A stretch of 64,000 bases of DNA from Acidobacteriota bacterium (GTDB taxonomy: Bacteria; Acidobacteriota; Vicinamibacteria; Marinacidobacterales; Marinacidobacteraceae). Both the position numbers and the translations under genes were made by a program. The stretch is from assembly GCA_022822745.1 (NCBI GenBank), contig JAJEAO010000006.1:9509-73508 (forward strand). The letters run 5' to 3'. Shown one piece after another: positions 25,293-51,664 of the stretch; the first letter of the stretch is position 1, and each line of letters opens with the position of its first letter. The notes below the pieces were generated by a model that had not been told where the DNA came from, made no database searches, and saw only the letters and a program-made list of their open reading frames with translations.

Positions 25293-25364
25293 TCCGAGGG
25301 GGCCGAAGAGAAGCGGCAAGGGGGCGAGATGGATCACGGCAGCGGAGATTCTACGGAGCCGGCG

Positions 25365-25540
25365 GAACCGATGCGCCGCGCGAGAGGAGCCCGGCCCCTG
25401 CCGGCGCGCCACGCGAGACGAGCCCGGCCCCTGCCGGCGCGTCGGGCCGATTCTCGCGGTAGCGGCCCTGCCCGGCACGGATGCCGGGCGCAACCGATGC
25501 GCCGCGCGAGAAGAGCCCGGCCCCTGCCGGCGCGTCGGGG
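25365..25540. repeat. Intergenic repeat cluster between tatA and ubiE: three copies of cgcgagaNgagcccggcccctgccggcgcg (each with a CCGGC-cccT-GCCGG mini-hairpin) plus a GCCCGGCAcggaTGCCGGGC hairpin
   Basis: Copies at about 25381-25410, 25413-25443 and 25504-25534. The longer unit aaccgatgcgccgcgcgagaRgagcccggcccctgccggcgcg occurs twice (25365-25410 and 25490-25535), and the hairpin is at 25468-25487. Confidence 0.8.
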
Positions 25541-25558
25541 GCGTCAGACTTCCGGCCC

Positions 25559-26425
25559 ATGGAACCGTCGAGACCCCGGCTCGCCCCCGACGAGCGCCGA
25601 AGGACCCCGGGCGCCATCCGCCGCATGTTCGAGGCGGTGGCCCCCGGCTACGACCGGATGAACCGCCTGCTCAGCTTCGGCCTGGATCAGGGCTGGCGAA
25701 GGGCGGCGCTGCGGGATCTGAAGGTGAAGCCGAACGCCCGGATCCTCGACCTCTGCTGCGGCACCGGAGATCTGGGGCTCGCCCTGCCCCGCGGGCCGCT
25801 GCGGGTGGGATGCGACTTCACGCCGGCGATGCTCGAGATCGCGGCCCGGAAGGCGAGGACCGGGCGCGTCGCGTTCCCGGTGGTCGCGGGCGACGCGATG
25901 CGCCTCCCCTTCCGTCCGGAGAGTTTCGACCGCCTGATCGTCGGCTTCGGAGCCCGCAACCTCTCTGACCTGCGCGCGGCGTTCCGGGAGATGCATCGGG
26001 TGCTGCGGCCCGGCGGCCGGGTGGTCATCCTCGAGTTCTCCCAGCCGACCGGCCGGTTCGCCCGCTGGGGGAACCGGCTCTGGCTGCGGACCGGCGTGCC
26101 GTGGCTCGCCCGGCTGCTCGCTCCCGGGCCGGACGCCTACGGATACCTGCGCGATTCGGTCCTCGAGTTTCCCGAGCCCGAGGCGATCGCGCGAACCCTC
26201 GCATCGGGGGGCTTCGAGCGCGTCTCGTGGCGCCCGCTGTGGTTCGGGACGGTCGCCATCCACTCGGGCCGCGCGGTCACCGAAGGACGTCCAGGATCGG
26301 ACCGAGGAATCGGAGCGGCCCCACCCGGGGCACCTCGGCGAGCACCGCCTTCTGCTGCATCGCTTCCTCCCACAGCCGCCGGTCGGCCCCGGCCGCCGCG
26401 ACCCGGAGCCCGACGCGCCGAGTGA
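25559..26425 (+). CDS. ubiE: Demethylmenaquinone/ubiquinone C-methyltransferase
   Basis: MFEAVAPGYDRMNRLLSFGLDQGWRR, ILDLCCGTGDL and RVLRPGGRVVILEFS motifs. The real C-terminus probably lies before 26425: the tail is low-complexity and overlaps the convergent pilin gene. Confidence 0.8.
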   Translation: MEPSRPRLAPDERRRTPGAIRRMFEAVAPGYDRMNRLLSFGLDQGWRRAALRDLKVKPNARILDLCCGTGDLGLALPRGPLRVGCDFTPAMLEIAARKARTGRVAFPVVAGDAMRLPFRPESFDRLIVGFGARNLSDLRAAFREMHRVLRPGGRVVILEFSQPTGRFARWGNRLWLRTGVPWLARLLAPGPDAYGYLRDSVLEFPEPEAIARTLASGGFERVSWRPLWFGTVAIHSGRAVTEGRPGSDRGIGAAPPGAPRRAPPSAASLPPTAAGRPRPPRPGARRAE

Positions 26426-31695: not shown

Positions 31696-32188
31696 GGTTC
31701 GCCGCCCGGATCGAGACGAAGCGGACGACCGGCCCCCGGCCTCCATGGGCCGGGCCGGCGGCAACCTCGAAGCGGAGGGCCGCGAGCCGGTCGGACCCCG
31801 GCCGGGCCACCTCCTCGACGCGCCAGCGCACCTGGATCGAGGCGGAGTCGCGCCCGGCGGGGAGACCGGCCTCGTCGAAGTACTCGACGTATCCCGGCGT
31901 CGGGGGCCCGGTGAAGTCGGCGCTGCCCCCGGGAGCGACGGCGCCGTGGTAGCCGGAACCCAGCCACCCGGCGGTGAATCGGGCGGCGTGGAGGCGGTCC
32001 AGCCGAGCCCGCGCGATGCGGGACGCGAGGCCGTTGTCCGCCGTCGCCCGGCCGCTGGCGGTGGCGGCGGCGAGGCCGCGGGCGAGTCCCCCCGCAGCCG
32101 CCACCAGGAGCAGGGCCGCCAGGAGCGCCTCGACGAGAGTGAAGCCGGCGGCAGTGCGCCGGGGATTGGAACTGCGGGATCGAGCCAT
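31688..32188 (-). CDS. Type IV pilin-like minor pilin (PilV/FimT/GspH-like)
   Basis: Prepilin motif AAGFTLVEALLAALLLVAAAGGLARGL close to the N-terminus; 166 aa. Confidence 0.75.
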   Translation of the reverse strand: MARSRSSNPRRTAAGFTLVEALLAALLLVAAAGGLARGLAAATASGRATADNGLASRIARARLDRLHAARFTAGWLGSGYHGAVAPGGSADFTGPPTPGYVEYFDEAGLPAGRDSASIQVRWRVEEVARPGSDRLAALRFEVAAGPAHGGRGPVVRFVSIRAANRE

Positions 32189-32220
32189 TTCGGAATGTCC
32201 TCCTCAGCCCGATCCCCAAC

Positions 32221-32275
32221 GGGAAAACGGGGTCCATCCGCCCGTTTTCGGGGCGCGGTGTCGAAAACTCGGGGC
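32221..32275. promoter_or_regulatory. Alternating inverted-repeat element (GGGAAAACGGGG-n8-CCCGTTTTCGGGG-n6-GTCGAAAACTCGGGG) in the 5' region of the minor-pilin operon; a near-identical element precedes pilM
   Basis: Read directly; compare 50211-50260. The half-sites CCCGTTTTCG and CGAAAAC(N)CGGG are reverse complements. Confidence 0.6.
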
Positions 32276-32323: not shown

Positions 32324-33058
32324 TCAGGCGGGCGAGGGCGCGACGAGGACGACGACGGCGCCGAGAGCCAGAAAGGCTCCGAAGGGCAGCGGCGTCTCTC
32401 TCCGGATGCGTCCGGCGGCGAGGAGCGGCGCCGCCACGATCAGCCCGGCGGCGGACGCGGCGCCCAGACTCGCGAGAGCCCCGACCGGTCCGAGGAAGGC
32501 GCCGATCAGCAGGAGCAGCTTCACATCCCCGAGACCGAGCGCCTCCACCCCCCGCCACCGCAGCCAGACGGCCCGCAACCCCAAGAGAACCCCGGCGCCG
32601 AGGAGCGCCCCGCCCGCCGCGGCAGGCAGGCCCGCCCCTCCGGGAGCGAGACTCAGCAGGAGCCCCGCCGCCGCGCCCGGGAGGGTCAGAAGGTCGGGCA
32701 GCACGAGGTGCTCGAGGTCGGTCGCGGCGAGCGCGAGGAGGAGCAGCAGCAGGACGGACCAGGAGACTCCAGGCCACACGCCGACATGCCAGGGCGCGAA
32801 ACCGACCGCGGCCGCGGAAAGCGCCTCCACGACCGGGTATCGCCACCGGATGCGGACGCCGCAGTCGCGGCAGCGACCCGCGAGCAGGAGGAAGGAGACG
32901 ATCGGGACGTTGTCGCGCCAACGCACGCGAGCGGCGCAGTCGGGACATCGGGAGGGTGGAGACACGACCGATTCCCCGCGCGGGAGCCGGTGGATGAGCA
33001 CGTTCAGGAAGCTGCCGACGACGAGCCCCGCGGCGCCCGCGAGGATGACCCCGTACAC
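32324..33058 (-). CDS. pilD: Prepilin peptidase (A24 family)
   Basis: VVGSFLNVLIHRLP...CPDCAARVRWRDNVPIVSFLLLAGRCRDCGVRIRWRYP, the tetracysteine zinc motif plus the peptidase TM core. GTG start at 33058. Confidence 0.85.
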   Translation of the reverse strand: MYGVILAGAAGLVVGSFLNVLIHRLPRGESVVSPPSRCPDCAARVRWRDNVPIVSFLLLAGRCRDCGVRIRWRYPVVEALSAAAVGFAPWHVGVWPGVSWSVLLLLLLALAATDLEHLVLPDLLTLPGAAAGLLLSLAPGGAGLPAAAGGALLGAGVLLGLRAVWLRWRGVEALGLGDVKLLLLIGAFLGPVGALASLGAASAAGLIVAAPLLAAGRIRRETPLPFGAFLALGAVVVLVAPSPA

Positions 33059-33087: not shown

Positions 33088-33966
33088 TCAGCGAACCGGC
33101 CGCCCGGGGTAGCCGGCGAGCGGCGATCCCGCGGCGATTTCCACCGCCCCTCCGGGCCCCAGGATGAAGGGCGCGCCGACGGGATCGACGGGAACCGCTT
33201 CCAGAAACCCGGCGTCCACGAGATCCTTCCACCGCCGCGGCGGCCGCCCGAACTCCGCCCGGAATCCCGTGACGACGCGCAGCAGCTCGTCCCGCCGGTC
33301 CAGCGCATCGAGCTGACGCAGGTGTGTCGCGGCGTTGGCGCGCTCTCGCGGCGACTCCGCCGCCTCGAGGGCCGCCCGCCAGAGGAAACGCGCAGCCTCG
33401 CGGGATCCCGCCTCCTCGAGCATGCGCGCCGCGAGGCCCTCGAACCACGCGGGCGCCCCGGGCTCGCGGGCTGCGTTCCGGAGCAGCCGCGCCGCCGCTC
33501 CCGGATCCGCGAGATGCCAGTGACGGACCAGACCCTCGAGGAGGCGGGCCGACCAGTCCCGGTGATGCCGGGCCGTCCAGTCCGACAGCAGCTCCGCCGC
33601 CGCCCGCGGGTCGCCGGCGCCCAGTGGCGGCGGCTCGGCCAGGAGGAGCGCTCCCTCGACGGCAGGCGCCCGGAACCCGGGATCGAAGTCCGCCGCCCGC
33701 CGGACGCGTCCGGCGAGGCGCGGGAATTCAGCGCCCCCTTCGAGCCGGATCCGTCCGTAGTGCTGGACCGCTCCGAGCCAGGCCAGGTCGGCGAGGAGAC
33801 GGCGGACGCCGGCGGGCAGCGCGGTCACGACCTCGCGGTCCAGCCCGGCGCCCGGAGCGGAGTCCGCGATGGCCGGGTCGCCCGAACGCCCCGCGGCCGT
33901 CCACAGCGCGACGAGTCCCGCGAGGAGGACGCCGCCCGCGCGCAACCGGGCCGAGAGCCGCGTCAT
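33088..33966 (-). CDS. Hypothetical secreted/membrane-anchored protein in the pilus operon (possible PilG-like accessory to the ABC pair)
   Basis: N-terminal TM/signal (GGVLLAGLVALWTAAG) and no recognisable catalytic motif. It is translationally coupled (ATGA) to the upstream permease. Confidence 0.45.
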   Translation of the reverse strand: MTRLSARLRAGGVLLAGLVALWTAAGRSGDPAIADSAPGAGLDREVVTALPAGVRRLLADLAWLGAVQHYGRIRLEGGAEFPRLAGRVRRAADFDPGFRAPAVEGALLLAEPPPLGAGDPRAAAELLSDWTARHHRDWSARLLEGLVRHWHLADPGAAARLLRNAAREPGAPAWFEGLAARMLEEAGSREAARFLWRAALEAAESPRERANAATHLRQLDALDRRDELLRVVTGFRAEFGRPPRRWKDLVDAGFLEAVPVDPVGAPFILGPGGAVEIAAGSPLAGYPGRPVR

Positions 33967-34700
33967 CGTCCCGACCGACGAAGCACAGCCGGAAAGGCGG
34001 CCGTCGCGACGAGAAGGACGCCCGCGACGTAGAGCGCGGCGTAGAGCGTCGCGTCACCCGGGGGAGCGCCCTGCCCGAAGCCGGGATGATCCAGCCGGGA
34101 CAGGTCGGGCAGGATCCGGCGCGCGACGGCGGCGGCGGGGCGAAGCCACCCCTCCGCCTCGGGCCCGGGCAGGCGGTGGGAGAGCCAGCCGGCGCTCGAC
34201 ACCGCGGCCGCGAGCGGGGCCGCGAGGGCCGGACGGGACAACGCGAAGAGCGCGGTCGCCACGCTCAGCACGACGAGGAGGCGCAGACCCAGGAGCCACC
34301 CCGTCAGCAGCGTCCCGGATCCGCTCGAGCCAAGCCCCACCAGGAGTGTGGCGGCCGCCGCATGGACGACGAGTCCCCCGGCGTGGCCGGCGAAGCGGGC
34401 GAACAGCAGCGCCGAGGGCGAGATCGGGCGCGCGAGGACGGCCGGCGCGACCACGCCGCCCCCTCCGACGACCCCGCTCCCGTGACCGAGCGCCAGGATC
34501 CACCCGAGAAGGCCGGCGGCGCCCCAGCCCAGATCGGCGGCGAGCCGGCCGCCGTCGTCCACCGAGGCCGGCGTCAGCGCCATGCCAGCGGCGACGGCCG
34601 CCGCCACCAGACCAACCGACCCGACGAGCCCCCCCTCCCTCGCAAGACCGCGAAAGCCCGCCAGCGCCGCCGACGCGACGGGGAGCCAGCGCCGGGTCAT
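33963..34700 (-). CDS. ABC-2-type transporter permease (PilI-like)
   Basis: About 245 aa with 6 predicted TM segments. ATGA overlap with the ABC ATPase stop. I chose the start at MTRRWLP; the R-rich 5' extension is rejected. Confidence 0.7.
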   Translation of the reverse strand: MTRRWLPVASAALAGFRGLAREGGLVGSVGLVAAAVAAGMALTPASVDDGGRLAADLGWGAAGLLGWILALGHGSGVVGGGGVVAPAVLARPISPSALLFARFAGHAGGLVVHAAAATLLVGLGSSGSGTLLTGWLLGLRLLVVLSVATALFALSRPALAAPLAAAVSSAGWLSHRLPGPEAEGWLRPAAAVARRILPDLSRLDHPGFGQGAPPGDATLYAALYVAGVLLVATAAFPAVLRRSGR

Positions 34701-35524
34701 CCCCGCGCGACGGAGGCGGGAGGGTCTCCGCCTCCCCGGTTCGGTCCGGAGGATCGAAGCAGGTCGCCGAGCCACCCGGCGCCGTCCTCCGGACCTCCTG
34801 CCCGTGGTCTTCGTCGAAGCTCTTCCACCGGCCCGGCGGCCACGACGGTCCCCGCCGCGATCGCGACCACGCGCTCGGCGATGGCTTCCACTGCGCGCTC
34901 GTCGTGGAGGCTGACGAGAACGGCCGCGCCGCGGTCGGCGGATCGCCGCACGGCGACGAAGGCCCGCCCGCGAGCCACCGGATCGAGGCCGGTGAAGGGC
35001 TCGTCCAGAACGAGGATCGCGGGTCGGCCGAGGATCGCCTGAGCGAGGCTCACGCGCCTCCGCACGCCTCGGGAACAGCGCGACGGGCGCCGGGACAGCC
35101 AGGGACCCAGGTCCAGGGCGGCGGCGGCGCGCGTCGCCGCCGCCTTCGCCTCGGAGCCGCGGAGCCCGGCCAGGCTGGCGTGGAGTCGCAGCACGCCCCG
35201 AACGTCGAGCCCTCCCGGGAACCGGTCTTCCTCGGCCGCGAAGCCGAGCCGGCGCCGGGCTGCGGGAAACGTCGCCGGGCAGCCGGCGATCCGCGCGTCC
35301 CCGGAGTCCGGAGCGAGGAGTCCGGCGAGGAGGCGCAGCGTCGTCGTCTTGCCGGACCCGTTCTCGCCGACGAGCGCCACGACTTCGCCCGCTTCGACCG
35401 CGAGGTCCAGCTCCCGGACGGCGAACCGGCGACGGGCGCGCCATCCGCTCCGGCCGCGAACCGGGAACGAGCGCGTCAGGCGCCGGGCCAGGATCTCTGG
35501 CTCCCGGCGCCGACCCGGCGTCAC
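34697..35524 (-). CDS. ABC transporter ATP-binding protein (PilH-like)
   Basis: Walker A GENGSGKTT, signature LSRRPSRCSRGVRRRVSLAQA and Walker B ILVLDEP. GTG start at 35524 overlaps the pilA stop. Confidence 0.85.
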   Translation of the reverse strand: MTPGRRREPEILARRLTRSFPVRGRSGWRARRRFAVRELDLAVEAGEVVALVGENGSGKTTTLRLLAGLLAPDSGDARIAGCPATFPAARRRLGFAAEEDRFPGGLDVRGVLRLHASLAGLRGSEAKAAATRAAAALDLGPWLSRRPSRCSRGVRRRVSLAQAILGRPAILVLDEPFTGLDPVARGRAFVAVRRSADRGAAVLVSLHDERAVEAIAERVVAIAAGTVVAAGPVEELRRRPRAGGPEDGAGWLGDLLRSSGPNRGGGDPPASVARG

Positions 35525-37385: not shown

Positions 37386-38533
37386 GGCGCGTGCTCCCCG
37401 CCCGGACGAAGCCGCTCCGCGAGCCCCTCGGGGTCGTTCGAGGCGGCCAGGGCGTCCGATGCGACCACGACGCCCCGACGGACCAGGGAGCGGAGCGCGT
37501 CGTTCAGCGACGCCGAGCGCGCAGGGCCCGCGCCCGCATCCATGACAGCGAGGAGCTGATGGAGCTTGTCCTCCCGGATCAGGTTGCGCGCCGCGGGGGT
37601 CGGAGCGAGGTGCTCCACCGCGAGAACCCGCCCGCGGCCATCGGCGCGCGGCACCAGCCGCTGGCAGTAGATGGTCTCCACCGAGGTCGCCAACCGGTTC
37701 CGGATCTGACGGTGCTGCGACGGAGGAAACAGCTCGACGAGCCGCTGGAGGGCGTGGAGCACCGAACGGGCGTGGAGGGTGGCGAGGGCGAGATGGCCGG
37801 TCTCCGCGACCCGGAGGGTGGCGTCGGCCGTTTCCCGGTCACGAATCTCGCCGATCATGACGACGTCGGGATCGGACCGAAGCACCGAGCGCAGGGCGGC
37901 GTGCACCGACGCCGTGTCGGATCCCACCTGGCGCTGGGTCACCAGGGCCCGCGCGTTCCGATGGAGGGCTTCGACCGGATCCTCGATGGTCAGCACGTGG
38001 ACCGGACGGGTCCGGTTGATCCGGTCCACGATCCCGGCGAGGGTCGTGGACTTGCCGGATCCCACCGGCCCGGTCGTCAGGACCAGACCGGAAGTCAGCG
38101 CCGCGAGGCGGACGGCGCCCTCGGGCAATCCGAGAGCGTCGAGCGAGGGGACCCGTTCGTTCACGACCCGGTACACCGCGCCGAGCCCGCCGCGCCGCCG
38201 GAAGACGCTCGCGCGGAATCGCGCCGCGCCCGCCAGCGTGAAGGAGAAGTCGGCCTCCTCCCCGGCTTCGACCTGTTCGCGGGCGCGGGTCGGCATCGCG
38301 GTGGCGACCATGGCCTCGACCCGCGACGCCGGCAACGCTTCCTCGCCCGCCCGGGTGAGGGCGCCGTTCACCCGGAAGCGGGGCGCGACCCCCGGCGCCA
38401 GGTGCAGGTCGCTCCCACCGAGCTCCACCAGCCCGGACAGGAGCCGCCCGAGCTCCTCCTTCGGTTCGGTCGCGGGGGACACGCGATGCACAACTTCGGC
38501 CATACCCCATGCATGACGGATTTTCGGGAGCAA
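37382..38533 (-). CDS. pilT: Twitching-motility ATPase PilT family
   Basis: Walker A LVLTTGPVGSGKSTTLA, DPVMIGEIRD and His box ATLHARS; its length matches PilT, not PilB. An alternative start at 38503 (MAEVV) is possible. Confidence 0.9.
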   Translation of the reverse strand: MLPKIRHAWGMAEVVHRVSPATEPKEELGRLLSGLVELGGSDLHLAPGVAPRFRVNGALTRAGEEALPASRVEAMVATAMPTRAREQVEAGEEADFSFTLAGAARFRASVFRRRGGLGAVYRVVNERVPSLDALGLPEGAVRLAALTSGLVLTTGPVGSGKSTTLAGIVDRINRTRPVHVLTIEDPVEALHRNARALVTQRQVGSDTASVHAALRSVLRSDPDVVMIGEIRDRETADATLRVAETGHLALATLHARSVLHALQRLVELFPPSQHRQIRNRLATSVETIYCQRLVPRADGRGRVLAVEHLAPTPAARNLIREDKLHQLLAVMDAGAGPARSASLNDALRSLVRRGVVVASDALAASNDPEGLAERLRPGGEHAP

Positions 38534-38715
38534 CGCGCCAAAGTCGCTCCCCGGGGGCCCGGAAGGGCCATACCGGCCCGGCGCTTGCTTTCGACCCGGC
38601 CGCCCCGGGCGTCGCTGCTACCATTCTGCTCCGCATGGCGGGCCAGCGGGGCGGAGCACCGGGGGGACGGGGCTCCGGGGGCGAGAGGGGATCGAATCGA
38701 GGGGCGCCGCCGCCG

Positions 38716-49088: not shown

Positions 49089-50188
49089 GGCGAACCTCGC
49101 CGGGCCCGGACCGCCGCCCGGACCTGGATCCAGGCCAGTCCGGCGGCGATCGCGAAGGCCGGTCCGCCGGGGGAATCTCCGGCGCCGGCCTCCACGCCCT
49201 CCGCGCCGGGCCGGCGGAGCCCGGCGAGCGGGTCGAGAACGGACGGCCCGCCTCCGAGGGCCGCCCGAGCCCCCTCGGGAAGGGCGCCGCCTCCGCTGAC
49301 CCACACGCGGGCGGCGGAGCGGACCCCGGCTTCTCGGAGTCCCTCGCGAAACGCGGCGACGATCCGCGCGGCCGCCCCCGAGTCACCGGCCGCGTCCCGG
49401 CGCCCGTTCTCCCGCGCCGGGAGGGAGAGCGCGTCGTTCGCCAGCGGCGGCGCCTCGACGCTCGCGAGAAGGTCTCCCGGCCCCTCGTCCCCGGGCGAAT
49501 CGGCGAAGATGTGGACGGATGCCCGGCGGGCGCCCAGTTCGACGAACGCCGCAGGACCCGGAGGCGACGGAGCCCCGTCTCCGTCGCCCACCACCCCTCG
49601 CAGGCGAGCGGCCGCGAACAGCGCGTACGGTTCGAGGTCCACGCGGGTCGTCTGCCTCCCGCAGCGGGTGACCGCGTCGCAGTGGGCCCGCACCATCTCC
49701 CGGGGAGCCGCCCCGAACACGATCGCCTTCGGGGGGCCGGTCTCGGGGCCGTCTTCGCCGTCCGCGGTGGCCTCGCCGCCGGCCGCGGGTGGCGAGGCGA
49801 CCCAGTCGAACTCGAGCGACTCGATGTGGAACGGCACGTGCCGCGCCGCCTCCTGCGCGACCGCGTCGCGGAAGTCGGGCGACGCCGGATCAGCGGCCGG
49901 AGGCGGGAGCCGGCGAATGAAGACCGAGCTGCCGCCGACCGCGACCGCCACCTCCCGGGTCCGGGCGCCGATCCGGGTGAGCAGCCGGCCGAGCGCGTCG
50001 CCGACTTCGTCCGGATCGCTCGTCATCCCGTCGGAGATCGAGCCGGGAGGCAACGGCTCCCGGCCCGCCCCGACGAGGAACGGGCCGTCCCGGTCCCAGC
50101 CGAGCTCGACCGCCTTCACGCCCGCCGAGCCGATGTCCACGCCGATGCCGGAGAGAGGTTTCCGGAGTCCGAAGGGAATCTGCGCCAT
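49085..50188 (-). CDS. pilM: Type IV pilus assembly ATPase-fold protein
   Basis: Actin/FtsA-like fold beginning GIGVDIGSAGVKAVEL; 367 aa. Confidence 0.85.
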   Translation of the reverse strand: MAQIPFGLRKPLSGIGVDIGSAGVKAVELGWDRDGPFLVGAGREPLPPGSISDGMTSDPDEVGDALGRLLTRIGARTREVAVAVGGSSVFIRRLPPPAADPASPDFRDAVAQEAARHVPFHIESLEFDWVASPPAAGGEATADGEDGPETGPPKAIVFGAAPREMVRAHCDAVTRCGRQTTRVDLEPYALFAAARLRGVVGDGDGAPSPPGPAAFVELGARRASVHIFADSPGDEGPGDLLASVEAPPLANDALSLPARENGRRDAAGDSGAAARIVAAFREGLREAGVRSAARVWVSGGGALPEGARAALGGGPSVLDPLAGLRRPGAEGVEAGAGDSPGGPAFAIAAGLAWIQVRAAVRARRGSP

Positions 50189-50210
50189 GCCCGGGGAATG
50201 ACGCAGCGGC

Positions 50211-50260
50211 GGGTCGAAAATCCCGTTTTCGGGCGCTTTGTCGAAAACCGGGCGCCTCGC
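50211..50260. promoter_or_regulatory. Alternating inverted-repeat element (GGGTCGAAAATCCCGTTTTCGGGcgctttGTCGAAAACCGGG) 20-70 nt upstream of pilM; paralogous to the element at 32221-32275
   Basis: Read directly; about 30 of 35 positions are identical to the minor-pilin copy. Confidence 0.6.
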
Positions 50261-50482: not shown

Positions 50483-51664
50483 TCAATCCGGAGGGGGCTC
50501 GGCGTGCTCTTCCTCTTCCACGCCGCACCGGATCGGCCAGTCGCCCGCGGGGATCCGCACCCGGGGCGCGAGGCTCAGCCTGGCGACCCGACCGCCGGGA
50601 AGCGGCTCCCACCACCGGCTGCGAGCCGTGTCGAGGCAGTCGCTGCGGCCGTGCCCGAAGTAGTCGTCGCGGCCCCGATCGATCACGGCCTCCGGGCGCT
50701 GCACCCGATCCTGCTTCGTGTACATCAGATCGGCGGGATCATCGCCCACATGGGAACCCGGGATGTGATTGGGGGCGCAGGGATCCACGGCTCGGAAGAC
50801 ATGGAGCAGCTCGTGAACCATGACGGCTTCGAACGTGGAGATCTCGTCCGGGTCGGCCCCGAGCGTGGCGTCGCTGCAGGACAGGTACACCGCGGCGCCC
50901 GGGCCGCCGAATGGAGCGCTGCCGCACACGCCTGCCTGCCTGCCGTCGTAGTAGATGGCGTAGATCTTGTCCGGGTCGAGACCCATCGCGGCCTCGATCT
51001 CGTCGGTCAGCCCATGCACCAGCCCTCCGGCCTGGCCGTCGCCTTCCTGGTGGGTGAACGACACGCGCAGGAAGCTCACGTCGAGCTCGCCCCCGTAGGT
51101 GTCCAGTTTCAGCCGGTACCCGATTTCCTCGGCCAGCCAGTTCTGGATCGCCTCGAAGGATGTCGCGACATCCCCCCACCGGTCCAGGTTCCGATCCTCC
51201 CGGTCGCTCGGGACCGCGTACACGGCGTGGATCTGGGGCCCCTCGAAGTCGTCCGGTCGGTCGCGGGTCGAGCGATCGTCGGGCTCGGAAACCTCGAGGA
51301 CCACGGAGGATGAGAACATCTCGAAACTCGCGGTGATTTCCGCCGACCCAGCCCCTTCCCCGGTGACGACCCCCTCCGCATCCACCGAAGCCACCGCCTC
51401 GTCCGAGGAGGACCAGCTCGCCGCCAGCGTGCCGGTCGTGCCGTTGTCGTAGAGACCGTAGGCCACCAGAGGGGCCAGGGTCTGGCCGATCCTCAACGAG
51501 GCCCGCGGGGCGACGATCTCGAGGCCGGTGAGCTGCCGCGCGACGGCTTCCGGCGCCTGCGGGGTGACGGCGTTGCCGCTGTCGCCGCCCCCGCACGACA
51601 GGCACAGGCCGGTGACGAGCGGGAGCAGGGCCGCGGGGATCCGATGGGTCCGCCTGATCGTCAT
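50483..51664 (-). CDS. Secreted HExxH zinc metallopeptidase lipoprotein with an N-terminal Big_2 (bacterial Ig-like) domain
   Basis: Lipobox LVTGLCLSC; Big_2-like VDAEGVVTGEGAGSAEITAS; HELLHVF zinc motif. The ATG at 51664 follows GGAGGTGA 9 nt upstream; the 230-aa R-rich ORF extension is rejected. Confidence 0.7.
   Translation of the reverse strand: MTIRRTHRIPAALLPLVTGLCLSCGGGDSGNAVTPQAPEAVARQLTGLEIVAPRASLRIGQTLAPLVAYGLYDNGTTGTLAASWSSSDEAVASVDAEGVVTGEGAGSAEITASFEMFSSSVVLEVSEPDDRSTRDRPDDFEGPQIHAVYAVPSDREDRNLDRWGDVATSFEAIQNWLAEEIGYRLKLDTYGGELDVSFLRVSFTHQEGDGQAGGLVHGLTDEIEAAMGLDPDKIYAIYYDGRQAGVCGSAPFGGPGAAVYLSCSDATLGADPDEISTFEAVMVHELLHVFRAVDPCAPNHIPGSHVGDDPADLMYTKQDRVQRPEAVIDRGRDDYFGHGRSDCLDTARSRWWEPLPGGRVARLSLAPRVRIPAGDWPIRCGVEEEEHAEPPPD

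What the first reader, a model, noticed from the sequence alone, without database searches (positions are those of the whole stretch)
32221..32275. Conserved alternating-palindrome element shared by the 5' regions of two separate type IV pilus operons (minor-pilin operon and pilMNOPQ)
The elements at 32221-32275 and 50211-50260 share about 35 nt of near-identity (CCCGTTTTCGGG-n5/6-TGTCGAAAAC(N)CGGG, preceded by a third half-site GAAAA(T/C)...). The half-sites are reverse complements in alternating orientation, as expected for a dimeric regulator operator or a structured 5'-UTR. Both lie directly upstream of pilus gene starts on the same strand, suggesting a dedicated pilus regulon signal. A weaker half-site (GATTTTCGGGAG) sits upstream of pilT near 38515-38530.
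Basis: seen in the sequence. Interest (0 to 1): 0.7.

Follow-up and report, generated by a model that had tools for sequence, protein, structure and literature searches.

The report
Shared promoter module of two pilus operons
Two type IV pilus operons in this uncultured Acidobacteriota genome carry the same ~55-bp upstream DNA module, which related genomes conserve at the same two places, so it is most likely a shared promoter/regulator-binding signal and neither a palindromic operator, an RNA switch nor a junk repeat.

Summary
Windows 32241-32268 and 50222-50248 share CCCGTTTTCGGG-(6/7 nt)-TGTCGAAAAC, with 0 such pairs in 100 shuffles. Both copies lie on the coding (minus) strand just upstream of an operon: the minor-pilin/PilY1 operon (start 32188) and pilMNOPQ (start 50188).

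I compared 12 orthologous copies from at least 7 related Acidobacteriota genomes. The inverted repeat (GTTTTCG/CGAAAAC) is perfect only in this genome.

What is conserved is an oriented three-box module:
- Box A, TTTTC(G/C)ACA, invariant in all 12 copies.
- Box B, 14-15 nt downstream and starting with GGG (GGGAAT, GGGAT or GGGCG).
- Box C, CGTC or CGTT, 35-37 nt after Box A in 12/12 copies.

The Box B-to-Box C geometry (GGAAT-N16-CGTC) resembles ECF-sigma promoters. Box A would then sit near -55, like an activator site.

Other readings find no support. There is no conserved RNA structure, no Rfam match, no sigma-54 or sigma-70 consensus, and no further copies in 177 kb of clade DNA (12 Box A hits against 0.23 expected, all at these two operon types).

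Verdict: an undescribed but ordinary kind of feature, a regulon-specific promoter module. The binding factor and the transcription start are unknown. Interest is moderate to low.

The parts
32259..32269 (-). E1 Box A, AGTTTTCGACA. This is the invariant core TTTTC(G/C)ACA plus 2 flanking bases.
   Evidence: Coordinates checked. The core is invariant in 12 orthologous/paralogous copies.
32244..32250 (-). E1 spacer segment CGAAAAC. Lineage-specific.
   Evidence: 7/7 complement only in the two window copies and 3-6/7 elsewhere. Orthologs have GAAGC, GAAAC or GAAGT, or nothing similar.
32234..32243 (-). E1 Box B, GGGCGGATGG. GGG-led, at the -35-like position and degenerate in this copy.
   Evidence: GGG starts 14-15 nt after Box A in 10 of the 12 distinct copies (also in the duplicate L043); it starts at 10 nt in L034 and is absent in L033.
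32218..32232 (-). E1 T-rich tract plus Box C (CCCCGTTTTCC CGTT; CGTT at 32218-32221).
   Evidence: CGT(C/T) lies 35-37 nt after Box A in 12/12 copies.
32186..32205 (-). Shine-Dalgarno GAGGAGG (32199-32205) and ATG (32186-32188) of the first minor-pilin-like gene.
   Evidence: The N-terminus MARSRSSNPRRTAAG|FTLVEALL is a prepilin-type signal.
50239..50249 (-). E2 Box A, GGTTTTCGACA.
   Evidence: The same core stands upstream of pilM in L001, L036, L037, L038, L041, L042 and L043.
50225..50231 (-). E2 spacer segment CGAAAAC (lineage-specific complement of Box A).
   Evidence: The closest relative (73% PilM identity) has CGGAAGC here.
50215..50224 (-). E2 Box B, GGGATTTTCG. -35-like, compare GGGAAT in relatives.
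   Evidence: GGGAT-N16-CGTC here; GGAAT-N16-CGTC in L037, L038, L041 and L042.
50198..50203 (-). E2 Box C, CGTCAT. -10-like, 9 nt before the pilM ATG at 50186-50188.
   Evidence: The same CGTCAT-9 nt-ATG arrangement occurs in L001 and L036.
38513..38541 (-). pilT promoter region: TTGGCG-17 nt-CGTCAT, then 9 nt to the ATG at 38501-38503.
   Evidence: CTTTG(A/G)C-N17/18-CGTC is conserved upstream of pilT in 5 genomes. Model R1 gives no match here.

Best explanation
E1 and E2 are two copies of a ~55-bp, strictly oriented promoter module. It drives, and so co-regulates, the minor-pilin/PilY1 operon and the pilMNOPQ operon in a lineage of uncultured, high-GC Acidobacteriota related to Thermoanaerobaculia.

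The module, read on the coding strand, has three boxes:
- Box A: TTTTC(G/C)ACA.
- 14-15 nt spacer, then Box B: GGG(A)AT or GGGCG.
- 16-17 nt spacer, then Box C: CGTC or CGTT.

Inferred mechanism:
- Boxes B and C are the -35 and -10 elements of a promoter with ECF-sigma-like geometry, GGAAT-N16-CGTC. Published ECF consensuses are GGAAT-N17/18-cGTT and GAACTT-N16/17-TCtgA.
- Box A is the most conserved part. It would lie roughly at -59 to -49. I take it to be the docking site of a sequence-specific factor, either a monomeric or asymmetric activator or an UP-like contact, that makes both operons respond to the same signal.
- Transcription would start a few bases after Box C. That gives a 16-20 nt leader with a GGAGG ribosome-binding site for the minor-pilin operon. 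For pilM in this genome it gives an almost leaderless mRNA.

In this genome the spacer happens to read CGAAAAC, complementary to part of Box A.

Shown: the existence, conservation, orientation, spacing and pilus-specific location of the module, and the absence of a conserved RNA structure.
Inferred: that the boxes are promoter elements, the sigma type, the transcription start, and that a protein binds Box A.
For: 1. The pair is far beyond chance in the window (2 observed, 0 in 100 shuffles).
2. Box A is present at the orthologous place in every related locus read. These are the pilD-to-minor-pilin intergenic regions of L035, L033, L034 and L040 and the pilM upstream regions of L001, L036, L037, L038, L041, L042 and L043. 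PilM identity goes down to about 42-51%, while the flanking intergenic sequence has diverged.
3. There are 12 Box A hits in 177 kb of clade DNA against 0.23 expected. All are in the same orientation and place.
4. A sequence model of the module scores 31-50 bits at these sites. The next best score is no more than 10 bits in the window plus 113 kb of loci.
5. CGT(C/T) lies 35-37 nt after Box A in 12/12 copies. GGG lies 14-15 nt after it in 10/12.
6. GGAAT-N16-CGTC(TGA) is seen in L037, L038, L041 and L042, and GGGAT-N16-CGTC in the window's pilM copy and L001. This matches published ECF consensus geometry (PMC10012870, read; PMC10651043, read).
7. Distances from Box C to the start codon fit a transcription start just downstream. 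They are 23-27 nt including GGAGG for four of the five minor-pilin sites (21 nt with an AAGGA in L040), and 9 nt for pilM in three genomes.
8. In the one genome where pilD is not followed by minor pilins (L039), the module is absent there. It therefore tracks the operon and not the position.
Against: - No transcription start data exist.
- In the window's own E1 copy the -35-like box is poor (GGGCG) and Box C is CGTT.
- L033 and L034 deviate in Box B.
- No ECF sigma or regulator gene is seen in the window.
- pilT promoters share the CGTC box but have a different upstream element (CTTTGAC). CGTC could therefore be a general feature of this clade's promoters or leaders and not ECF-specific.
- With CGTC as the -10 element, the pilM ATG in this genome is about 12 nt from it. 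That implies an unusual 4-6 nt leader without a ribosome-binding site.
- The orthologous sites are phylogenetically related, so the counts overstate independence.
- The complete source genome could not be scanned.
Confidence: 0.55

Rival explanations
1. Box A itself is the -35 element (TCGACA/TCCACA, close to TTGACA) and Box B is the -10 element (GATTTT, GAATTT or GCGGAT, 16-17 nt downstream) of a sigma-70-family promoter. Box C then lies in the 5' leader.
For: TCGACA is 5/6 of TTGACA. A hexamer ending in T lies 16-17 nt downstream in 10/12 copies, and it is GA(A/T)TTT in the pilM copies.
Against: - 5 of the 12 putative -10 hexamers lack the essential A at position 2 (GCGGAT twice, CGCCAT, GCGGCT, ACGGGA).
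- The consensus scan finds no sigma-70-type promoter here.
- This reading does not explain why CGT(C/T) keeps a fixed 35-37 nt distance from Box A in 12/12 copies.
- It does not explain why 9 nt, not 6, are invariant in Box A.
Confidence: 0.2
2. One reading: an operator of alternating inverted half-sites (GAAAAC / GTTTTC / GAAAAC) bound by a dimeric or multimeric regulator.
For: In the window genome both copies have a perfect 7-bp inverted repeat, GTTTTCG-N10/11-CGAAAAC, plus a third similar hexamer.
Against: - The second arm is 3-6/7 in all ten copies from other genomes. The closest relatives read CGGAAGC (L001) and CGCGAAG (L035).
- The third half-sites of E1 and E2 sit at different distances and align to different module parts.
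- The element has a strict orientation relative to the gene in 12/12 copies, which a symmetric operator does not need.
Confidence: 0.05
3. A structured RNA in the 5' leader (riboswitch, attenuator or protein-binding hairpin) formed by the complementary segments.
For: In the window genome the middle segment can pair with either the upstream or the downstream segment. Small GC hairpins can be drawn in most spacers.
Against: - MFE z-scores are -0.04 and -0.42.
- RNAalifold predicts zero consensus pairs on 12 sequences.
- The spacer hairpin is paired in 54% of cells, against 50% in shuffles and 54% in the slid control.
- No Rfam family passes the gathering score. The best hit is 16 bits against a gathering score of 36.
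- The invariant parts are single-stranded-type boxes with no complementary partner.
Confidence: 0.03
4. Box A is a DnaA box, and DnaA acts as a transcription factor on the two pilus operons.
For: In six distinct copies (L037, L038, L040-L042, plus the duplicate L043) Box A is TTTTCCACA. That fits the DnaA-box consensus TTWTNCACA (consensus recalled from memory). The search listed PMC4674748, a paper on Cyanothece replication origins and DnaA, among papers holding both 'TTTTCCACA' and 'DnaA box'; I read only its title and abstract. Box A is an asymmetric 9-mer, like a DnaA box.
Against: The window genome and five other copies have G instead of the consensus C at position 6 (TTTTCGACA), outside the accepted consensus. 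There is only one box per promoter. No link to oriC or dnaA could be examined.
Confidence: 0.05
5. A generic dispersed repeat (REP-like), or the U-tract of an intrinsic terminator of the upstream gene (pilD, Big_2 gene), with no pilus-specific role.
For: GC-rich hairpins can be folded upstream of the T-run in several copies. In the window's pilM copy the hairpin has -25 kcal/mol and ends 3 nt before TTTT. The whole source genome could not be scanned.
Against: - There are no other copies in 177 kb of clade DNA.
- The GTDB-wide exact scan gave only 27 isolated single hits in unrelated phyla and none upstream of pilus genes where checked.
- The terminator scan finds nothing.
- Hairpin distance to the T-run varies from -2 to 7 nt, and hairpins are weak in several copies.
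- A terminator does not explain the invariant C(G/C)ACA or the fixed spacing to Boxes B and C.
Confidence: 0.04

Closest known systems
ECF (group 4) sigma-factor promoters, e.g. Corynebacterium/Mycobacterium SigH/SigE (GGAAT/C-N17-18-cGTT) and Pseudomonas/Azotobacter AlgU (GAACTT-N16/17-TCtgA)
   Same: Box B and Box C have the same geometry and near-consensus letters in several copies. GGAAT-N16-CGTC equals GGAAT-N17-GTC, and GAATTT-N16-TCTGA occurs in L038, L041 and L042 (consensus from PMC10012870 and PMC10651043).
   Different: The window's own copies have weaker -35 boxes (GGGAT, GGGCG). An extra invariant 9-bp box lies about 15 bp upstream of the -35, which is not part of ECF promoters. 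No cognate sigma has been identified and no TSS is known.
Class I activator sites, asymmetric monomer sites (MarA/SoxS-type 'marbox') and the UP element upstream of the -35 (from general knowledge)
   Same: An oriented, asymmetric, promoter-proximal element at a fixed distance upstream of the -35 region. It contains a T-run in a 73% GC genome.
   Different: There is no sequence resemblance to any characterised site. The binding protein is unknown. The invariance of C(G/C)ACA goes beyond a generic A/T-rich UP element.
AlgR-dependent fimU-pilVWXY1E promoter of Pseudomonas aeruginosa, where dedicated regulator sites stand upstream of the minor-pilin operon (from general knowledge)
   Same: The minor-pilin/PilY1 operon has its own promoter with a specific upstream recognition element.
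   Different: The motif is different (AlgR sites are CCGTTCGTC-like). Here the same module is also used for pilMNOPQ. No LytTR regulator was seen.
DnaA box TTWTNCACA
   Same: Box A is an asymmetric 9-mer. The TTTTCCACA variant in half of the clade fits the consensus exactly.
   Different: The window copies read TTTTCGACA (G at position 6). The context is a single box per promoter at pilus operons, not an origin.

Membership tests
REP / dispersed intergenic repeat | Many copies per genome, scattered in intergenic regions irrespective of gene function | tested here: not met
   Only 2 copies in the 64-kb window and 1 per relevant operon in 113 kb of related loci. Model R1 finds nothing else above 10 bits. 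The whole source genome was not available, so the test is partial.
REP / dispersed intergenic repeat | Imperfect palindrome forming a stable hairpin, conserved among copies | tested here: not met
   The inverted repeat is perfect only in the window genome. There is no consensus structure.
Palindromic operator of a dimeric regulator | Both arms of the inverted repeat conserved in orthologous sites | tested here: not met
   The second arm is 3-6/7 in all copies from other genomes.
Cis-regulatory RNA (riboswitch / attenuator / Rfam family) | Match to a curated covariance model | tested here: not met
   No hit at gathering score in the window. Permissive local scans give only Guanidine-III at 16 bits against a gathering score of 36. 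Nothing was found in relatives' modules.
Cis-regulatory RNA (riboswitch / attenuator / Rfam family) | Conserved secondary structure with covariation, more stable than shuffles | tested here: not met
   z-scores are -0.04 and -0.42. There are 0 consensus pairs. The hairpin test equals its controls.
ECF-sigma-type promoter | -35 GGAAC/T-like and -10 CGTC/GTT-like elements separated by about 16-18 nt | tested here: inconclusive
   The -10-like CGT(C/T) is present in 12/12 copies. The -35-like box is GGAAT in four distinct copies (plus the duplicate L043), GGAAA in one and GGGAT in two, and only GGGCG, GGACG or GCGCC in five, including window E1.
ECF-sigma-type promoter | Transcription start 5-9 nt after the -10 element; dependence on a cognate ECF sigma | not testable with these tools
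   No transcript data are available. No sigma gene is in the window.
Sigma-70 housekeeping promoter | TTGACA-N16-18-TATAAT with A2 and T6 in the -10 | tested here: not met
   No site in either region nor anywhere in the window at 9/12 or better.
Sigma-54 promoter (PilR-type control) | GG-N10-GC (TGGCAC-N5-TTGCW) at a fixed place | tested here: not met
   There is no consistent GG-N10-GC. The best scattered matches are 5-9/12 at different offsets, and there are none in either window copy.
DnaA box | 9-mer fitting TTWTNCACA | tested here: not met
   Both window copies are TTTTCGACA (G at position 6). The TTTTCCACA variant in L037, L038 and L040-L043 does fit.
Intrinsic terminator | GC-rich hairpin immediately followed by a U-run | tested here: not met
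   The tool finds none. Upstream hairpins exist, but at -2 to 7 nt from a 4-T run, and they are weak in several copies.

The most novel reading that the evidence does not exclude
The module defines a previously unknown, lineage-specific regulatory circuit for the type IV pilus machine in Acidobacteriota. In this reading an ECF-type sigma factor, with an obligatory partner bound at the invariant 9-bp Box A, jointly switches on the minor-pilin/PilY1 priming complex and the PilMNOPQ alignment/secretin complex. The partner could even be DnaA, since half of the clade carries a consensus DnaA box there, which would couple piliation to the cell cycle. The two promoter copies would be kept alike within each genome by gene conversion or by co-evolution with the factor.
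Probability: 0.2. Interest if true: 0.55.

Novelty: new member of a known kind. Interest (0 to 1): 0.38.

Why it matters
As far as I know, and as far as my literature searches found, nothing is known about how Acidobacteriota regulate type IV pili. The relatives recovered here were all metagenome-derived. A conserved, information-rich cis-element shared by the minor-pilin/PilY1 and pilMNOPQ operons gives three things:
- A handle for defining the pilus regulon in complete genomes by scanning with the module.
- A bait for finding the regulator or sigma factor, by co-occurrence or DNA pulldown.
- A marker for promoter architecture in a phylum where promoters are uncharacterised. No E. coli-type sigma-70 promoter is detectable anywhere in this 64-kb window.

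It remains one more regulon-specific promoter motif and not a new kind of system.

Tried and rejected
- RNA structure. Single-sequence folds, RNAalifold on 12 copies, an explicit hairpin count and Rfam at gathering and permissive thresholds were all negative.
- GTDB-wide exact scan for GTTTTCGACA-N4-12-CGAAAACGGG. It gave 27 isolated hits in unrelated taxa, roughly the number expected by chance for 20 specified bases in 596 Gb. The source genome was not among them. The one hit in a possibly related high-GC group (Longimicrobiales, L022) lies next to a convergent amidohydrolase and is not a pilus locus.
- Metagenome scan with a PilM alignment. It gave only 2 loci. Both carry the module.
- Sigma-54, sigma-70 and terminator readings were not supported.
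- Search for a regulator or sigma gene in the window by Pfam. None was found.
- pilA upstream regions. Only the ribosome-binding site is conserved, with no module, so pilA is probably co-transcribed with pilT-pilC.
- A named Thermoanaerobaculaceae genome (L044) has a different pilD context (pilS/pilR-like genes follow) and no module. The outer phylogenetic limit of the module is therefore unresolved.
- Literature searches for the motif and for pilus regulation in this class found nothing relevant.
- The repeat finder on the whole window was dominated by GC-rich chance matches and did not help.

Full report
**1. The observation**

On the + strand, E1 (32241-32272) reads CCCGTTTTCGGGGCGCGGTGTCGAAAACTCGGGG. 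E2 (50222-50251) reads CCCGTTTTCGGGCGCTTTGTCGAAAACCGGGC. That is 29 identical columns of 33. The composite pattern CCCGTTTTCGGG-N5-8-TGTCGAAAAC occurs twice in the window and in none of 100 dinucleotide-preserving shuffles. Each half is found only at these two places. The hexamer TTTTCG is not enriched overall (9 observed, 9.8 expected), but 5 of the 9 lie in the two elements.

**2. Context**

The window has 73% GC. Pfam scans and translations give this gene order on the minus strand:
- leuC/leuD-like genes, a Big_2-domain gene (stop 50483-50485), then E2, then pilM (ATG 50188), pilN, pilO, a 140-aa ORF with no Pfam match in the pilP position, pilQ (to 45589), then accB/accC.
- After the divergent pyrG: pilT (ATG 38503), pilC, a pilin, an unannotated stretch (in relatives: an ABC ATPase plus two unknown genes), pilD (stop 32324-32326), then E1.
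- After E1: a prepilin-like gene (ATG 32188, ...AAG|FTLVE), an unknown gene, a PilY1-like gene (to 27761), and another gene with a prepilin motif.

Names attached to PilD homologues place the organism in Acidobacteriota, near Thermoanaerobaculia. The exact PilM is on record from NCBI, ENA and four Logan runs. Its nearest relative is 73% identical, and all others are 51% or less.

**3. Orthologous sites**

I fetched the regions upstream of pilM and downstream of pilD from related contigs. Every region upstream of pilM contains TTTTC(G/C)ACA in the same orientation. These are L001 (73%), L036 (51%), L038 (47%), L037 (48%), L041, and L042/L043 (42-51%). The same holds for every pilD-to-minor-pilin intergenic region: L035 (76% PilD), L033 (68%), L034 (64%) and L040 (61%) (compiled). 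In the genome where pilD is followed by an unrelated gene (L039), the motif is absent.

In 177 kb of DNA from this clade, Box A occurs 12 times against 0.23 expected from composition, and only at these sites. A sequence-only model of the module (R1) scores 31-50 bits at these sites. The next best match is 7.2 bits in the window and 10.3 bits in 113 kb of loci.

**4. What is conserved**

Aligning 12 distinct copies shows an invariant TTTTC-ACA, usually preceded by (A/G)G. GGG starts 14-15 nt after it in 10/12 copies. CGT(C/T) lies 35-37 nt after it in 12/12.

The segment CGAAAAC makes the inverted repeat in the window. It is a 7/7 complement of Box A only in the two window copies and 3-6/7 elsewhere. 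The nearest relatives read CGGAAGC (L001) and CGCGAAG (L035).

In E2 it is Box B (GGGATTTTCG, 50215-50224). In E1 it is the T-rich tract just before Box C (32222-32232).

Within a genome the two copies resemble each other beyond the boxes. The window copies share CGAAAACGGG. L040 and L041 share 32 identical nucleotides, including 20 nt upstream of Box A. This points to gene conversion, or to co-evolution with a common factor.

**5. RNA readings**

- Single-strand folds of the two leaders are no more stable than shuffles (z = -0.04 and -0.42).
- RNAalifold on the 12 copies predicts no pair.
- The small GC hairpin that can be drawn between Boxes A and B is paired in 54% of cells. Shuffles give 50% and a slid control gives 54%.
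- Rfam gives nothing at gathering score. In local permissive scans it gives only a 16-bit Guanidine-III match, against a gathering score of 36.

The structured-leader reading is rejected.

**6. Promoter readings**

No sigma-70 consensus promoter and no terminator is found by the scanning tool in either region. No 9/12-or-better sigma-70 promoter exists anywhere in the window. No consistent GG-N10-GC sigma-54 promoter follows Box A.

Boxes B and C have ECF-like geometry:
- GGAAT-N16-CGTC in L037, L038, L041 and L042. In L038, L041 and L042 this reads GAATTT-N16-TCTGA.
- GGAAA-N16-CGTC in L040.
- GGGAT-N16-CGTC in the window's pilM copy and L001.
- Only GGGCG, GGACG or GCGCC in the other five, including E1.

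Published consensus sequences are GGAAT/C-N17-18-cGTT for SigH/SigE (PMC10012870) and GAACTT-N16/17-TCtgA for AlgU (PMC10651043).

A start just after Box C fits the distance to the start codons. That distance is 23-27 nt including a GGAGG site for the minor-pilin genes. It is 9 nt for pilM in the window, L001 and L036. It is 30-45 nt with a GGAG site for pilM in the TTTTCCACA subclade.

Under this reading Box A lies about 15 bp upstream of the -35, roughly at -59 to -49. This is where class I activators or the alpha C-terminal domain contact DNA (general knowledge).

The alternative is Box A as -35 and Box B as -10. It fails for five copies whose '-10' lacks A at position 2, and it leaves the fixed position of Box C unexplained.

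**7. pilT**

It shares the CGTC box but has no Box A, and model R1 does not match it. The pilin gene has only a conserved ribosome-binding site upstream and is probably co-transcribed with pilT-pilC.

**8. Dispersed-repeat test**

The GTDB-representative scan for GTTTTCGACA-N4-12-CGAAAACGGG returned 27 isolated single hits in unrelated phyla. That is about what 20 specified bases give by chance in 596 Gb. The source genome was not among them. The only hit in a high-GC relative-like group (L022) is not at a pilus locus. Together with section 3 this argues against a REP-type element.

**9. Other resemblances**

TTTTCCACA, the Box A variant in half of the clade, fits the DnaA-box consensus TTWTNCACA. 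A search listed papers that hold both that 9-mer and the term 'DnaA box'; I did not read them. The window's TTTTCGACA departs from the consensus at position 6, so I rank this reading low.

GC hairpins can be folded upstream of the T-run in several copies. Their distance and strength vary, and a terminator would not explain the invariant C(G/C)ACA.

**10. Verdict**

The finding is a real, conserved, pilus-specific cis-element. The best-supported explanation is a shared promoter module, made of an invariant upstream recognition box plus an ECF-like -35/-10 pair, that co-regulates the minor-pilin/PilY1 and pilMNOPQ operons.

The palindrome and the RNA-structure readings are not supported. The REP reading is not supported within the sequence available.

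The binding factor, the sigma factor and the transcription start are all inferred and have not been shown. This is a new example of a familiar kind of feature in a poorly studied phylum, of moderate interest.

Noticed in passing
window 25353-25539: Three copies of a ~61-nt GC-rich repeat (…GAGCCCGGCCCCTGCCGGCGCG…), 70-84% identical, with 33 and 93 nt spacing. They lie at and just upstream of the 5' end of the ubiE-type methyltransferase ORF (25463-26425, +) (family D2).
   Followed up: no
window 38501-38545; L033 300-345; L034 235-277; L040 1370-1420; L039 1450-1500: pilT promoters of five genomes share CTTTG(A/G)C-N17/18-CGTC(N)(T/G). The CGTC box lies only 8-10 nt from the start codon, with no Shine-Dalgarno. 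This suggests near-leaderless mRNAs, and that CGTC is a recurrent promoter or leader element of pilus genes in this clade.
   Followed up: partly
L040 7870-7901 and L041 2349-2380: In one relative the two module copies (minor-pilin and pilM) share 32 identical nucleotides, TGTGCAGCTTCGCTTCGACTTTTCCACATTGG, including 20 nt upstream of Box A. This implies recent gene conversion or duplication of the promoter between the two operons. The window copies show the same tendency (shared CGAAAACGGG).
   Followed up: partly
L037 2480-2488, L038 2412-2420, L040 7889-7897, L041 2368-2376, L042/L043 2422-2430: Here Box A reads TTTTCCACA, an exact fit to the DnaA-box consensus TTWTNCACA. The window subclade has TTTTCGACA.
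   Followed up: partly
whole window 1-64000: Not one sigma-70-type promoter at 9/12 or better (with A2 and T6) is found on either strand of the 64-kb window. Promoters of this lineage evidently do not follow the E. coli consensus. The pyrG upstream region shows a conserved TA(C/G)CAT that may be the housekeeping -10.
   Followed up: partly
window 33449-35444; L033 3388-6004; L034 3362-5954; L040 4514-6967: Between the pilin gene and pilD the cluster carries an ABC-transporter ATPase gene and two genes without Pfam domains, conserved in all relatives. This is reminiscent of the pilGHI ABC system in the Myxococcus pil cluster (resemblance from memory).
   Followed up: no
L038 2461-2500; L041 2413-2460; L042 2468-2505: In the TTTTCCACA subclade the pilM leader after Box C is itself conserved (CGTCTGA.G.A.TGTGCGC…GGAGACGC). 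In L042 it contains an inverted repeat (GAAGAAAT…ATTTCTT) next to the GGAG ribosome-binding site, a possible translational hairpin. It is absent from the window genome.
   Followed up: no
L007 3415-3504 and L018 1701-1775 (Akkermansia MAGs): The chance hits of the GTDB scan in two Akkermansia MAGs are part of a tandem array in which TTTTCGACA recurs every 33 nt. This is unrelated to the finding.
   Followed up: no
L044 9001-12358: In a named Thermoanaerobaculaceae genome, pilD is followed by a histidine kinase and a sigma-54 activator (PilS/PilR-like) instead of minor pilins, and no module is present. Pilus regulation therefore differs between branches of the class.
   Followed up: partly
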